Below, piece after piece: positions 19,847 through 27,848 of a DNA stretch of 64,000 nucleotides. Below the pieces are notes generated by a model. The model ran no database searches and was not told where the DNA came from. It saw only the letters and a program-made list of their open reading frames with translations. Origin of the DNA: Escherichia coli. GTDB taxonomy: Bacteria > Pseudomonadota > Gammaproteobacteria > Enterobacterales > Enterobacteriaceae. Made by a program: the position numbers and the translations under genes. The stretch is from NCBI RefSeq assembly GCF_030013205.1, contig NZ_CP122648.1, one strand, 5' to 3'. The first letter of the stretch is position 1. Each line of letters opens with the position of its first letter.

Positions 19847-20102
19847 TAACGCTCCCTCTTAGCTCCAGTCTTAGCCTCCTTCTTATGACCTTAACAATGC
19901 ACCTGACACATATTCCTGTCGGGTGTTTCGTCATCATCATCTTCCCTTGCGAAAATCCTGGCTTACGTGGTATGCGTCAGGGCATTAGCAATATCCTTGA
20001 TTATCAATAGCATAACCATAACCACTGAAAATGAAATATTCCTTTATATTTCATATTGTTAAATGATACTTAAATAAATTTCATCAGTAAATCATTGCCA
20101 TA

Positions 20103-20148
20103 GATAATCATTGGATGGCACAATCAATTTTCGCTAATGATAACCATT
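20103..20148 (+). promoter_or_regulatory. Fur-box-like sequences at the yddA start
   Basis: GATAATCATT (20103..20112) and TAATGATAACCATT (20135..20148) resemble the Fur consensus GATAATGATAATCATTATC; the second overlaps the ATG. Confidence 0.3.
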
Positions 20149-21275
20149 CCCATTACGTTTTGTATGTTGATAGCAAAGTATCTCTGTCTGCTGAAGCCCT
20201 TTTGGCTGCGTAAGAATAATAAAACTTCAGTGCTGTTAATCATTATTATCCTCGCCATGATCCTTGGCGTTGTTAAAATTCAGGTCTGGTTAAACGACTG
20301 GAATAATGATTTTTTCAATGCGCTAAGCCAGAAAGAAACCGATAAGCTTTGGCAGCTTGTTCTTTGGTTCCCTGCCCTGCTGGGGATCTTTGTATTAATA
20401 TCCGTAAACAAAACATGGTTAATTAAACTACTGACTATTCGCTGGCGCGAATGGTTAACAGATTACTACCTTAATCGCTGGTTTGCAGATAAAAACTACT
20501 ACTTCACGCAAATCTACGGCGAGCATAAAAATACAGATAACCCTGACCAACGTATCGCTGAGGACATTCTCTTGCTGATCAGTAAAACGCTCAGCCTTTC
20601 ATTTGGCTTCATCCAGTCGCTTAGCATGCTGATCACCTTTACCGTTATTCTTTGGCAAAGCGCGGGTACGCTCTCATTCACTGTTGGTGGAACAGAATGG
20701 AATATCCAGGGGTATATGGTCTATACCGTCGTGCTCATTGTGATCGGTGGAACTTTATTTACTCATAAGGTGGGTAAACGTATTCGTCCGCTTAATGTGG
20801 AAAAACAACGTAGCGAAGCGACATTTCGAACTAATCTTGTGCAGCATAATAAGCAGGCTGAACTGATTGCGCTAAGCAATGCTGAGTCTCTACAACGCCA
20901 GGAGTTGAGCGACAATTTTCATACCATTAAAGAGAACTGGCATCGTTTAATGAATCGTCAGCGCTGGCTTGATTACTGGCAGAATATTTATTCGCGCTCG
21001 CTTAGCGTTCTTCCCTACTTTCTGTTATTGCCACAGTTTATTAGCGGACAGATCAATCTGGGCGGACTGATGAAATCGCGCCAGGCATTTATGCTGGTAT
21101 CGAACAATTTAAGCTGGTTTATTTATAAATATGACGAACTTGCTGAACTGGCTGCGGTTATCGATCGTTTGTATGAGTTCCATCAACTCACCGAACAGCG
21201 CCCTACGAATAAGCCTAAAAATTGCCAACATGCGGTACAAGTGGCTGACGCGAGTATTCGGGTAATGACTCCAAC

Positions 21276-25008: not shown

Positions 25009-25052
25009 TAGTTCGGATTTTACTTTACCGGGTAAATTCGCCCGGTTTTCGC

Positions 25053-27848
25053 ATGGAGATAATTATGAGAAACCTCTGTTTCTTACTGACGTTAGTGGCA
25101 ACTCTGTTGCTCCCCGGGCGACTGATTGCCGCCGCCTTACCGCAGGATGAAAAGTTAATTACCGGGCAACTGGACAATGGCTTGCGATATATGATTTATC
25201 CGCATGCTCAACCAAAGGATCAGGTAAATTTATGGCTGCAAATTCATACCGGTTCATTGCAGGAAGAAGACAATGAGCGCGGCGTGGCTCATTTTGTAGA
25301 ACATATGATGTTTAACGGCACAAAAACATGGCCGGGTAATAAAGTCATCGAAACATTTGAGTCAATGGGCCTGCGTTTTGGTCGCGATGTTAATGCCTAT
25401 ACCAGCTATGACGAAACAGTGTATCAGGTGAGTTTGCCGACTACGCAGAAACAAAATCTGCAACAAGTGATGGCAATCTTCAGTGAATGGAGTAATGCCG
25501 CAACCTTTGAAAAACTCGAAGTAGACGCTGAACGCGGCGTAATTACTGAGGAATGGCGTGCCCATCAGGATGCGAAATGGCGCACCTCTCAGGCGCGCCG
25601 CCCTTTCCTGCTGGCAAATACCCGTAATTTAGACCGTGAACCTATCGGCCTGATGGATACCGTCGCCACGGTCACACCGGCACAATTGCGCCAATTTTAT
25701 CAACGCTGGTATCAACCAAATAATATGACCTTTATTGTGGTCGGCGATATCGACAGTAAAGAAGCGCTGGCGCTGATAAAGGATAATTTAAGTAAGCTTC
25801 CGGCTAACAAAGCAGCTGAAAATCGCGTCTGGCCGACAAAAGCCGAAAACCACCTGCGCTTTAATATCATCAATGATAAAGAAAACCGGGTGAACGGCAT
25901 CGCACTCTATTATCGCCTGCCAATGGTACAAGTGAACGATGAGCAAAGCTTTATCGAACAAGCTGAATGGAGCATGTTGGTTCAGCTGTTCAACCAACGT
26001 CTGCAGGAACGCATACAGTCGGGCGAGTTGAAGACTATTTCTGGCGGCACTGCGCGCAGCGTTAAAATTGCACCCGATTATCAGTCGCTGTTTTTCCGTG
26101 TAAATGCACGAGACGATAATATGCAGGATGCTGCGAATGCATTAATGGCAGAGTTGGCAACTATTGATCAGCATGGTTTTTCTGCTGAAGAACTCGATGA
26201 TGTCAAATCTACCCGCCTCACCTGGCTGAAAAATGCGGTTGATCAGCAAGCTGAGCGTGATTTACGTATGCTGACCAGTCGCCTGGCATCCAGCTCATTA
26301 AATAATACGCCGTTCTTGTCGCCGGAAGAGACATATCAACTTTCGAAACGTCTGTGGCAGCAAATTACCGTGCAAAGTCTGGCGGAAAAATGGCAGCAGT
26401 TAAGAAATAACCAGGACGCATTTTGGGAGCAAATGGTAAACAATGAAGTTGCCGCCAAAAAAGCATTGTCTCCTGCGGCTATCCTGGCGCTGGAAAAAGA
26501 GTACGCCAACAAAAAGCTGGCGGCTTACATCTTCCCAGGCAGAAATTTATCGTTAACAGTAGACGCTGACCCACAGGCGGAAATTAGCAGCAAAGAAACG
26601 CTGGCTGAGAATCTGACATCATTAACACTTTCCAATGGTGCCAAGGTTATTCTGGCAAAATCCGCGGGTGAAGAGCAAAAGCTACAAATTACTGCTGTAT
26701 CTAATAAAGGCGATTTAAGTTTCCCTGCGCAGCAAAAATCACTTATCGCGCTGGCAAATAAAGCAGTAAGCGGAAGCGGCGTTGGTGAACTCTCCTCTTC
26801 CAGCCTGAAACGCTGGAGTGCGGAAAACTCGGTAACCATGAGCAGTAAAGTCAGTGGCATGAATACGTTGCTCTCCGTTAGCGCGCGGGCTAATAACCCT
26901 GAACCTGGTTTCCAGTTGATTAACCAGCGAATCACCCACAGCACGATTAACGACAATATTTGGGCATCGCTACAAAATGCTCAAATTCAGGCGTTGAAAA
27001 CGCTCGACCAGCGTCCAGCGGAGAAATTCGCCCAGCAGATGTATGAGACGCGCTATGCTGATGACCGCACGAAATTACTGCAAGAAAATCAGATTGCACA
27101 GTTTACTGCCGCAGATGCGCTGGCTGCCGATCGCCAGTTGTTTTCATCTCCAGCGGATATCACGTTTGTCATTGTCGGTAATGTCGCAGAAGACAAACTC
27201 GTGGCGTTAATTACGCGTTACTTAGGATCAATCAAACACTCTGATTCGCCATTAGCCGCAGGTAAACCATTAACTCGCGCGACGGACAACGCATCGGTTA
27301 CTGTAAAAGAACAAAATGAACCTGTGGCACAGGTTTCACAGTGGAAGCGTTATGATTCCCGGACACCGGTTAATCTGGCGACGCGTATGGCGCTCGATGC
27401 TTTTAACGTCGCACTGGCAAAAGATCTACGCATTAATATTCGTGAACAGGCATCTGGGGCATACAGCGTTTCTTCTCGCCTCTCGGTTGATCCTCAGGCC
27501 AAAGATATCAGTCATTTGCTGGCTTTTACTTGTCAACCGGAACGACATGATGAACTGTTAACGTTAGCGAATGAAGTGATGGTTAAACGTCTGGCTAAAG
27601 GGATCAGTGAGCAAGAACTGAACGAATACCAGCAAAACGTTCAGCGCAGCCTCGATATCCAACAGCGTAGCGTTCAACAATTAGCGAACACCATTGTAAA
27701 TAGTCTTATTCAATATGACGATCCTGCAGCATGGACTGAGCAGGAGCAATTGTTGAAACAAATGACGGTAGAGAATGTTAACACTACCGTTAAACAATAT
27801 CTTTCTCATCCGGTAAATACTTATACCGGAGTATTATTGCCAAAATAA
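25053..27848 (+). CDS. pqqL: Periplasmic M16-family zinc protease PqqL (931 aa)
   Basis: HxxEH inverted zinc-binding motif (HFVEHMMFNGT) near the N-terminus; signal peptide; 931 aa. Confidence 0.9.
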   Translation: MEIIMRNLCFLLTLVATLLLPGRLIAAALPQDEKLITGQLDNGLRYMIYPHAQPKDQVNLWLQIHTGSLQEEDNERGVAHFVEHMMFNGTKTWPGNKVIETFESMGLRFGRDVNAYTSYDETVYQVSLPTTQKQNLQQVMAIFSEWSNAATFEKLEVDAERGVITEEWRAHQDAKWRTSQARRPFLLANTRNLDREPIGLMDTVATVTPAQLRQFYQRWYQPNNMTFIVVGDIDSKEALALIKDNLSKLPANKAAENRVWPTKAENHLRFNIINDKENRVNGIALYYRLPMVQVNDEQSFIEQAEWSMLVQLFNQRLQERIQSGELKTISGGTARSVKIAPDYQSLFFRVNARDDNMQDAANALMAELATIDQHGFSAEELDDVKSTRLTWLKNAVDQQAERDLRMLTSRLASSSLNNTPFLSPEETYQLSKRLWQQITVQSLAEKWQQLRNNQDAFWEQMVNNEVAAKKALSPAAILALEKEYANKKLAAYIFPGRNLSLTVDADPQAEISSKETLAENLTSLTLSNGAKVILAKSAGEEQKLQITAVSNKGDLSFPAQQKSLIALANKAVSGSGVGELSSSSLKRWSAENSVTMSSKVSGMNTLLSVSARANNPEPGFQLINQRITHSTINDNIWASLQNAQIQALKTLDQRPAEKFAQQMYETRYADDRTKLLQENQIAQFTAADALAADRQLFSSPADITFVIVGNVAEDKLVALITRYLGSIKHSDSPLAAGKPLTRATDNASVTVKEQNEPVAQVSQWKRYDSRTPVNLATRMALDAFNVALAKDLRINIREQASGAYSVSSRLSVDPQAKDISHLLAFTCQPERHDELLTLANEVMVKRLAKGISEQELNEYQQNVQRSLDIQQRSVQQLANTIVNSLIQYDDPAAWTEQEQLLKQMTVENVNTTVKQYLSHPVNTYTGVLLPK

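What the first reader, a model, noticed from the sequence alone, without database searches (positions are those of the whole stretch)
20100..27848. yddA-yddB-pqqL as a protease-associated TonB-dependent import module with Fur-like boxes
The three genes pair a TonB-dependent receptor with a periplasmic M16 protease and an ABC exporter-type protein, which is the architecture of ferredoxin/protein-uptake (Fus-like) systems. Fur-box-like sequences sit at the yddA start, suggesting iron control.
Basis: partly seen in the sequence, partly recalled or inferred. Interest (0 to 1): 0.5.

Follow-up and report, generated by a model that had tools for sequence, protein, structure and literature searches.

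The report
Known Fus-like yddAB-pqqL operon, IS1-broken

Summary
The reading as a Fus-like import module is correct but already published (Grinter 2016 and 2019; Subashchandrabose 2013).

- **Homology:** against all PDB chains, YddB matches only its own structure (6OFR) and the ferredoxin receptor FusA (4ZGV, E=1.5e-80). PqqL matches its own structures and FusC (about 1e-57) and keeps the HFVEH zinc site.
- **Fur box:** the best match to the 19-bp Fur consensus in the 64-kb window (15/19) lies on the yddA start codon. It is the same box published for strain CFT073.
yddA is not intact. A complete 768-bp IS1 (21261-22028, 8-bp target duplication) splits it between the membrane domain and the ATPase domain.
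- **Reconstruction:** removing the IS1 restores a 561-aa YddA that differs from K-12 at 4 residues.
- **Distribution:** the identical allele occurs in only 6-7 swine isolates among 5,426 complete E. coli genomes.
- **Likely effect (inferred):** yddB and pqqL are intact but now lie behind about 1.35 kb of untranslated RNA, so their Fur-controlled expression is probably reduced by polarity.

Verdict: already known system, ordinary IS pseudogenisation, low interest.

The parts
20095..20124 (+). Candidate sigma-70 promoter of yddA (TTGCCA, 18-nt spacer, TG-CACAAT). This is a weak consensus match only.
   Evidence: 9/12 match, and the number of such sites in the region is no higher than in shuffles. 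The sequence is identical to K-12 from -170 to +41.
20133..20151 (+). Fur box overlapping the yddA start codon (GCTAATGATAACCATTCCC, 15/19 to consensus).
   Evidence: Best match in the whole window. Local-shuffle frequency is 0.008. Its reverse complement contains the published CFT073 box GGGAATGGTTATCATTAG (PMC3855560).
20235..20253 (-). Second Fur-box-like site (14/19), about 100 bp inside the yddA coding sequence.
   Evidence: No experimental support was found for this site specifically.
20137..21260 (+). yddA 5' fragment (codons 1-375, the transmembrane ABC_membrane_2 / SbmA_BacA domain). The reading frame runs 6 codons into IS1 (VMTPTY) and stops at 21279-21281.
21253..21260 (.). Left copy of the 8-bp target-site duplication AGTATTCG.
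   Evidence: (family D8). K-12 yddA has this 8-mer once.
21261..22028 (-). Complete IS1 element, 768 bp. It has terminal inverted repeats GGTGATGCTGCCAACTTACTGAT / GGTAATGACTCCAACTTACTGAT, insA at 21698-21973, insB' at 21276-21779 and the A6C frameshift motif. The transposase is antisense to yddA.
   Evidence: (NF033558 IS1 transposase).
22029..22036 (.). Right copy of the 8-bp target-site duplication AGTATTCG.
22037..22598 (+). yddA 3' fragment (ATPase domain, codons 376-561). The only listed in-frame start (GTG at 22209) lies downstream of the Walker A motif GYSGAGKT.
22636..25008 (+). yddB, an intact FusA-family TonB-dependent outer-membrane transporter (790 aa, 11 substitutions relative to K-12).
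25053..27848 (+). pqqL, an intact periplasmic single-chain M16B zinc protease homologous to FusC (931 aa; HFVEH at residues 80-84; 10 substitutions relative to K-12). RefSeq starts it at 25065.

Best explanation
The locus is the E. coli yddA-yddB-pqqL operon, the published E. coli counterpart of the Pectobacterium ferredoxin-uptake system (Fus).

**Proposed mechanism in the intact operon (partly inferred):**
1. Fur-Fe2+ binds a box overlapping the yddA start and represses one transcript covering all three genes.
2. Under iron limitation, or in urine, the operon is derepressed.
3. YddB, energised by the housekeeping TonB, is proposed to take up a still unidentified protein or large peptide substrate, probably iron-bearing.
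4. PqqL is proposed to cleave it in the periplasm.
5. YddA, an SbmA/BacA-like ABC protein with an exporter fold, is proposed to carry the released cofactor or peptide across the inner membrane.

**State in this window:** a complete IS1 has inserted at yddA codon 375, exactly between the membrane domain and the ATPase domain.
- YddA is therefore truncated to a membrane domain without an ATPase.
- yddB and pqqL are intact, but about 1.35 kb of untranslated, partly C-rich RNA now separates them from the Fur-controlled promoter.
- I infer that their Fur- and iron-dependent expression is strongly reduced by polarity, so the module is functionally crippled in this swine-associated lineage.

**Shown:** gene identities, homologies, the Fur box, the IS1 anatomy and the rarity of the allele.

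**Taken from the literature:** Fur regulation, co-transcription, and the periplasmic location and protease activity of PqqL.

**Inferred:** the nature of the substrate, the role of YddA, and polarity in this strain.
For: **Identity**
- The stretch 19500-28500 is 100% identical to swine E. coli chromosomes annotated pqqL, yddB, split ABC transporter and IS1.
- The whole window is 99.886% identical to strain K_EC180.

**Homology**
- YddB matches 6OFR (its own structure) and FusA 4ZGV at 1.5e-80, and nothing else in the PDB. 4ZGV is confirmed as FusA.
- PqqL matches 6OFS and 6OFT (its own structures) and FusC 6B03, 6B05 and 6BRS at about 1e-57. 6B05 is confirmed as FusC, and HFVEH 80-84 as the PqqL active site. 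The motif is present here.

**YddA**
- After removing the IS1 and one target duplication, YddA is 561 aa and in frame, with 4 differences from K-12.
- Pfam finds ABC_membrane_2, SbmA_BacA and ABC_tran.
- Its best solved relative is Rv1819c, 6TQE, at 2.9e-67.
- It is stated to be a FusD homologue in PMC5095587.

**Fur**
- Box at 20133-20151, 15/19, the top score in the window, local-shuffle frequency 0.008.
- It is the same box as published. The genes are derepressed in a fur deletion mutant, induced more than 30-fold in urine, and co-transcribed by RT-PCR.
- Fur binds upstream in K-12, and PqqL protein is induced by bipyridine and is periplasmic.

**IS1**
- 768 bp with inverted repeats, insA, insB', the A6C motif and an 8-bp duplication.
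- The truncated frame stops at 21279-21281. No long + strand ORF is listed between that stop and yddB except the 129-codon GTG remnant at 22209.
- C/G ratios reach 1.5-2.2 in several 78-nt windows of the + strand RNA.
Against: - No substrate is known. yddB and pqqL deletion mutants of BW25113 grow like wild type in iron-limited LB.
- In CFT073, iron chelation alone did not change transcript levels, so iron may not be the only signal.
- The Fur box is at or after the candidate transcription start rather than over the -35 and -10 elements. The promoter call itself is weak.
- Polarity of this IS1 copy is inferred from general knowledge of IS1 and from base composition, not measured.
- A weak promoter-like site at 22576-22605, just upstream of yddB, or read-through transcription could still express yddB and pqqL.
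- Both genes remain intact ORFs, which is compatible either with continued use or with a recent insertion.
Confidence: 0.85

Rival explanations
1. The module is still functional in this strain. yddB and pqqL would be expressed by read-through across IS1 or from an internal promoter, and another inner-membrane transporter, or none, would replace YddA.
For: yddB and pqqL are full-length with few substitutions relative to K-12. A promoter-like site lies at 22576-22605, just upstream of yddB. In UPEC the fitness genes found in the screen were yddB and pqqL.
Against: The promoter-like site is a 9/12 match, and such sites are no more frequent here than in shuffles. RT-PCR shows a single yddA-yddB-pqqL transcript in CFT073. 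About 1.35 kb of untranslated RNA with C-rich stretches precedes yddB. Intact ORFs are also expected after a recent insertion, and the allele is confined to 6-7 near-identical swine isolates.
Confidence: 0.3
2. YddB is a conventional small-molecule (siderophore or metal-chelate) or peptide receptor, and PqqL is a general periplasmic peptidase. On this view the operon does not import a folded protein.
For: No protein substrate has been found, and deletion mutants show no growth defect in iron-limited LB. Subashchandrabose et al. originally likened YddB to FepA. The closest solved relative of YddA, Rv1819c, is described in the literature I recall as carrying small hydrophilic compounds and peptides.
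Against: By sequence, YddB matches only FusA among all solved TonB-dependent transporters, with no siderophore receptor at E<=1e-3. Its crystal structure shows a large extracellular binding site like that of FusA. PqqL shares with FusC features that set both apart from other M16 proteases.
Confidence: 0.2
3. PqqL is a PQQ-biosynthesis protease (the historical meaning of its name), and the cluster serves cofactor synthesis.
For: The gene name. An old report found that E. coli pqqL complements pqqE and pqqF mutants of Methylobacterium organophilum (cited). There is a weak NCBIfam match to PqqF.
Against: The PqqF match scores 48.7 bits against a curated cut-off of 320. E. coli does not make PQQ. 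No other pqq genes are annotated in the window. PqqL is much closer to FusC.
Confidence: 0.02

Closest known systems
E. coli K-12 / CFT073 yddA-yddB-pqqL operon (structures 6OFR for YddB, 6OFS and 6OFT for PqqL; Grinter et al. 2019, PMC6793856)
   Same: It is the same locus, between ydeM and gadB. YddB differs from K-12 at 11 of 790 residues, PqqL at 10 of 931, and the reconstructed YddA at 4 of 561. The promoter and Fur-box region is identical from -170 to +41.
   Different: Here yddA is split by a 768-bp IS1 at codon 375. K-12 and most E. coli genomes have the empty site.
Pectobacterium ferredoxin uptake system FusA-FusB-FusC-FusD
   Same: It has a FusA-family TonB-dependent transporter (E=1.5e-80) and a FusC-family single-chain M16B protease (about 1e-57) with an HxxEH site at the same position, residues 80-84. 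It also has a fused ABC transporter, stated to be a FusD homologue in PMC5095587, and iron-responsive expression.
   Different: YddB is only about 24% identical to FusA. The gene order differs, and there is no dedicated TonB paralogue like FusB. The substrate is unknown, whereas Fus takes plant ferredoxin. In this window the ABC component is inactivated.
SbmA/BacA-like transporters and Mycobacterium tuberculosis Rv1819c (6TQE/6TQF)
   Same: YddA carries the SbmA_BacA and ABC_membrane_2 transmembrane domain plus an ABC ATPase. Rv1819c is its best solved relative (2.9e-67).
   Different: The function of YddA is untested. The IS1-truncated product (375 aa plus 6) has the SbmA-like architecture without an ATPase domain only by accident of the insertion site. 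Nothing shows that it is active.
IS1 insertion pseudogenes in E. coli
   Same: The element is canonical: 768 bp, inverted repeats, insA-insB' with the A6C frameshift site and a short target duplication.
   Different: The target duplication is 8 bp rather than the 9 bp I recall as most common. This IS1 copy is only 92-97% identical to the IS1A and IS1B copies inserted nearby in other strains.

Membership tests
Fus-type protease-associated import system | Outer-membrane TonB-dependent transporter of the FusA clade | tested here: met
   With phmmer against all PDB chains, YddB matches only 6OFR (itself) and FusA 4ZGV at E=1.5e-80. A TonB-box-like EEMTVYA lies at residues 31-37.
Fus-type protease-associated import system | Adjacent periplasmic single-chain M16 protease of the FusC type with an HxxEH zinc site | tested here: met
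   PqqL matches FusC 6B03, 6B05 and 6BRS at 3e-58 to 1e-56 over its full length. HFVEH is at residues 80-84, and an N-terminal signal-like segment is present. Periplasmic location comes from the literature.
Fus-type protease-associated import system | Intact fused ABC transporter (FusD homologue) in the cluster | tested here: not met
   In this window yddA is split by IS1 at codon 375, so no intact product is possible. The reconstructed gene is a complete protein with ABC_membrane_2, SbmA_BacA and ABC_tran domains. Homology to FusD itself was not tested here and rests on PMC5095587.
Fus-type protease-associated import system | Dedicated TonB paralogue (FusB) encoded in the cluster | tested here: not met
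   No TonB-like gene appears among the annotated features of the 99.9%-identical record that covers the whole window. The flanking genes are ydeM and gadB.
Fus-type protease-associated import system | Import of an intact (iron-bearing) protein substrate followed by periplasmic cleavage | not testable with these tools
   The substrate of YddB and PqqL is unknown in the literature as well.
E. coli Fur regulon | Fur-box (19-bp GATAATGATAATCATTATC-like) at the promoter or start of the operon | tested here: met
   A 15/19 match at 20133-20151 is the best in the window. Its frequency in local shuffles is 0.008. It is identical to the published box.
E. coli Fur regulon | Fur binding in vivo and derepression in a fur mutant | not testable with these tools
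   Literature only. The genes are up-regulated in a CFT073 fur deletion mutant, Fur is bound upstream of yddAB-pqqL in K-12, and yddA belongs to the Fur-2 iModulon.
IS1 insertion sequence | A 768-bp element with imperfect terminal inverted repeats, insA-insB' with an A6C frameshift site, and a short flanking target duplication | tested here: met
   pair I1, family D8; NF033558, 148 and 86 bits against a cut-off of 100 for the two ORF parts.
PqqF (PQQ biosynthesis protease) | Score above the curated TIGR02110 cut-off, with pqq biosynthesis genes in the neighbourhood | tested here: not met
   The score is 48.7 bits against a cut-off of 320. No pqq genes are annotated in the window.

The most novel reading that the evidence does not exclude
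yddA may be a recurrent target of IS1 in E. coli. At least four independent insertion sites lie within 40 bp of the membrane-domain/ATPase-domain junction (yddA nt 1097-1135) in unrelated strains. Further IS1 copies lie elsewhere in yddA in both orientations, upstream of yddA, and in pqqL.

The recurrence might reflect selection rather than only a target hot spot. One possibility is silencing of YddB because it serves as a phage or bacteriocin receptor, as FusA does for pectocins. Another is the creation of an SbmA-like, ATPase-less YddA that still transports.
Probability: 0.07. Interest if true: 0.5.

Novelty: already known. Interest (0 to 1): 0.12.

Why it matters
The system itself matters. 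It is the E. coli example of a class of transporters proposed to import whole proteins for nutrient (iron) piracy, and it contributes to UPEC fitness in systemic infection. All of that is already in the literature, including crystal structures.

What this window adds is small. It shows a natural IS1 knockout of the ABC component in a swine-associated lineage. Such strains could serve as a ready-made test of whether yddB and pqqL expression depends on the yddA promoter, and of whether the operon is dispensable in the pig gut.

Tried and rejected
1. **Window-wide Fur significance.** A 15/19 match occurs somewhere in 24% of whole-window shuffles, so rank alone is not significant. Only the local test and the literature carry the claim.
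2. **Hexamer density.** The density of GATAAT-like hexamers did not single out the yddA start; other AT-rich stretches score higher.
3. **Promoter and terminator scans.** Counts did not exceed shuffle expectation, so the promoter at 20095-20124, the site at 22576-22605 and the terminator-like hairpins are leads only.
4. **Rfam scan of 19500-28400.** It found nothing.
5. **NCBIfam.** It has no model that matches YddB (0 families). For PqqL it gives only sub-threshold M16 matches.
6. **IS1 orientation bias.** My first impression was that all IS1 copies in yddA share one orientation. This was an artefact of the junction query. A synthetic opposite-orientation junction found as many genomes (24 against 23).
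7. **IS1 hot spot.** About 47 genomes have IS1 within roughly 650 bp of the site, against about 14 expected from a crude random-placement estimate. That is a modest excess, uncorrected for shared ancestry, so I do not claim a hot spot.
8. **PDB code search.** A literature search for 6B03 returned unrelated papers. The identity of 6B05 as FusC came from a review instead.
9. **Searches not run.** I did not run the large homologue or context searches, because the association of FusA and FusC homologues across Proteobacteria is already published.
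Full report
**What is there**

The stretch 19500-28500 is 100% identical to the chromosomes of several swine E. coli isolates (K_EC180 and ETEC1748, 4067, 4070, 4071, 4079). It is about 98% identical to most other E. coli. The whole window is 99.886% identical to K_EC180.

The gene order is ydeN, ydeM, (yneP on the minus strand), yddA, yddB, pqqL, gadB, gadC, as in K-12.
- The yddA start codon is at 20137.
- yddB is 22636-25008 (790 aa).
- pqqL is 25053-27848 (931 aa; RefSeq prefers the ATG at 25065).

yddA is not one gene here. A complete IS1 sits at 21261-22028.
- It is 768 bp, with terminal repeats GGTAATGACTCCAACTTACTGAT... and ...ATCAGTAAGTTGGCAGCATCACC.
- insA (21698-21973) and insB' (21276-21779) are on the minus strand, and the A6C frameshift motif is present.
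- It is flanked by an 8-bp direct repeat, AGTATTCG, at 21253-21260 and 22029-22036.
- K-12 yddA contains that 8-mer once.

Deleting the IS1 and one repeat copy restores an in-frame 561-aa YddA with only 4 differences from K-12. The event is therefore a clean and probably recent transposition.

The insertion is after codon 375, between the transmembrane domain and the ATPase domain. Pfam places ABC_membrane_2 at residues 28-301, SbmA_BacA at 32-350 and ABC_tran at 383-515. The truncated frame reads VMTPTY and stops at 21279-21281. The only in-frame start listed for the 3' fragment (GTG at 22209) lies beyond the Walker A motif.

Both junctions at 100% identity occur in only 6-7 of 5,426 complete E. 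coli genomes, all from swine.

**Test of the Fus-like interpretation**

*YddB.* Searched against every PDB chain, YddB matches only its own structure (6OFR) and the Pectobacterium ferredoxin receptor FusA (4ZGV, E=1.5e-80). No siderophore receptor reaches E<=1e-3. 4ZGV is confirmed as FusA.

*PqqL.* It matches its own structures (6OFS, 6OFT), an unnamed M16 structure (9LDY, 3.4e-82) and FusC (6B03, 6B05, 6BRS; 3e-58 to 1e-56) over its full length. Ordinary M16 proteins come far behind, at 1e-22 or weaker. 6B05 is confirmed as FusC. The zinc motif HFVEH is at residues 80-84, as published.

*YddA.* The closest solved relative of the reconstructed YddA is M. tuberculosis Rv1819c (6TQE, 2.9e-67), followed by ABCD transporters. 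From my own knowledge of the literature, Rv1819c, SbmA and BacA act as importers. So 'exporter-type' is correct for the fold only.

*Prior publication.* The literature states all of this explicitly.
- PMC5095587 names YddB, PqqL and YddA as homologues of FusA, FusC and FusD.
- PMC6793856 solved the YddB and PqqL structures. It showed that PqqL is periplasmic, active and induced by iron limitation, and coined 'protease-associated import systems'.

*Differences from Fus.*
- YddB is about 24% identical to FusA.
- The gene order differs.
- No FusB-like TonB gene is in the window.
- The substrate is unknown.
- yddB and pqqL deletion mutants have no growth defect in iron-limited LB.

**Test of the Fur boxes**

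I scored every 19-mer on both strands against GATAATGATAATCATTATC.
- The single best site in the window is GCTAATGATAACCATTCCC at 20133-20151 (15/19), overlapping the yddA ATG.
- One of the three 14/19 sites is at 20235-20253.
- A GATAATCATT core lies at 20103-20112, inside the spacer of a weak promoter-like site (TTGCCA, 18 nt, CACAAT; 20095-20124).

Controls give a mixed picture. A 15/19 match somewhere in 64 kb appears in 24% of whole-window shuffles. Within the local 451 bp it appears in 0.8% of shuffles, and two sites of 14/19 or better appear in 0.35%. By sequence alone the box is suggestive.

It is decisive only together with published data.
- The reverse complement of 20134-20151 is exactly the box reported for CFT073 (GGGAATGGTTATCATTAG). 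The three genes are co-transcribed, derepressed in a fur deletion mutant and induced more than 30-fold in urine.
- Fur is bound upstream of yddAB-pqqL in K-12.
- yddA belongs to a Fur iModulon.
- One nuance: in CFT073, chelation alone did not change transcript levels, whereas PqqL protein rose with bipyridine in BW25113 and CFT073.

The promoter and Fur region here is identical to K-12 from -170 to +41.

**Most likely mechanism**

For the intact operon I adopt the published model. Fur represses the operon. YddB, driven by TonB, takes up a protein or large peptide substrate. PqqL cleaves it in the periplasm. YddA carries the product across the inner membrane. The first step is shown experimentally in the literature. 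The later steps are inferred by analogy with Fus.

For this window:
- The Fur-controlled promoter now drives a YddA fragment that has only the membrane domain.
- Translation stops 20 nt into IS1.
- About 1.35 kb of largely untranslated RNA follows before the yddB ATG, with several C-rich, G-poor stretches (C/G of 1.5-2.2).
- From established knowledge, IS1 insertions are polar on downstream genes through Rho-dependent termination.

I therefore infer, at roughly 60-65% confidence, that yddB and pqqL are poorly expressed and uncoupled from Fur in this lineage. The alternative is read-through or a weak internal promoter, for example the 9/12 site at 22576-22605. It cannot be excluded, and both genes are still intact.

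**Side observation: IS1 in and around this operon in other strains**

| Strain | Position | Adjacent change |
|---|---|---|
| 127 | yddA nt 1097 (right junction) | DNA to the left deleted back to ydeO |
| 98233 | yddA nt 1102 | none seen |
| 2018-01-1CC | yddA nt 1101 (left junction) | deletion into yddB |
| SY3626 | yddA nt 1102 (right junction) | deletion leftwards into ydeN |
| HL15 | yddA nt 1127-1135 | none seen |
| FDAARGOS_1370 | upstream of yddA | none seen |
| 3PT | inside pqqL | none seen |

- The IS1 copies in yddA are different variants, 92-97% identical to the one in this window.
- A junction query built in the opposite orientation finds as many genomes as the native one, 24 against 23. 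The apparent shared orientation was therefore an artefact of my query.
- The excess over a crude random expectation is about three-fold and is not corrected for shared ancestry, so I record it without claiming a hot spot.
- A laboratory-evolution study also saw IS1 copies flank and mobilise the pqqL operon.

**Verdict**

The only feature specific to this window is an ordinary IS1 pseudogenisation of yddA. Novelty: already known. Interest: low.

Noticed in passing
window 21261-22028: A complete IS1 splits yddA at codon 375, exactly at the junction of the membrane domain and the ATPase domain. The predicted product has the ATPase-less architecture of SbmA. The identical allele occurs in only 6-7 swine isolates among 5,426 genomes.
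   Followed up: yes
L003-L007 (yddA nt 1097-1135), L010, L011: Independent IS1 insertions, of different IS1 variants, cluster within about 40 bp of the same yddA site in unrelated strains. Some carry adjacent deletions into yddB or back to ydeN or ydeO. Other IS1 copies lie upstream of yddA (FDAARGOS_1370) and inside pqqL (3PT). This could be an IS1 hot spot or recurrent loss; the excess over chance is modest and not corrected for phylogeny.
   Followed up: partly
window 20028-20057: A 12-nt inverted repeat (AAAATGAAATAT, 6-nt spacer, ATATTTCATATT; 92% complementary) lies about 100 bp upstream of the yddA start and is conserved in K-12. It could be a binding site for a second regulator, which would fit the report that iron alone does not control the operon in CFT073.
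   Followed up: no
window 25027-25046: A small hairpin (ACCGGG, 8-nt loop, CCCGGT) followed by TTTTC lies in the yddB-pqqL spacer. It could be an attenuator or an RNA-stability element. The terminator scan did not flag it.
   Followed up: no
window 18690-19846; also about 4409-5199, 7979-10629, 48539-49423 and 59.5-63.9 kb: The nearest RefSeq record (99.9% identical) annotates many pseudogenes in this window: ydeM frameshifted, a carboxymuconolactone decarboxylase-family gene frameshifted, a fimbrial usher frameshifted, fdnH with an internal stop, and narZ truncated next to an IS91 transposase. The lineage appears to be accumulating IS insertions and pseudogenes, with about 20 IS1 places per genome.
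   Followed up: no
PDB entry 9LDY: An unnamed 'Peptidase, M16 family' structure (916 aa) is closer to PqqL (E=3.4e-82) than FusC is. It may be another member of the protease-associated import family. I did not find a paper that mentions it.
   Followed up: no
window 54395-54413 and 1125-1143: Two other 14/19 matches to the Fur consensus occur elsewhere in the window. Their number is close to the shuffle expectation (about 2), so they are probably chance.
   Followed up: no
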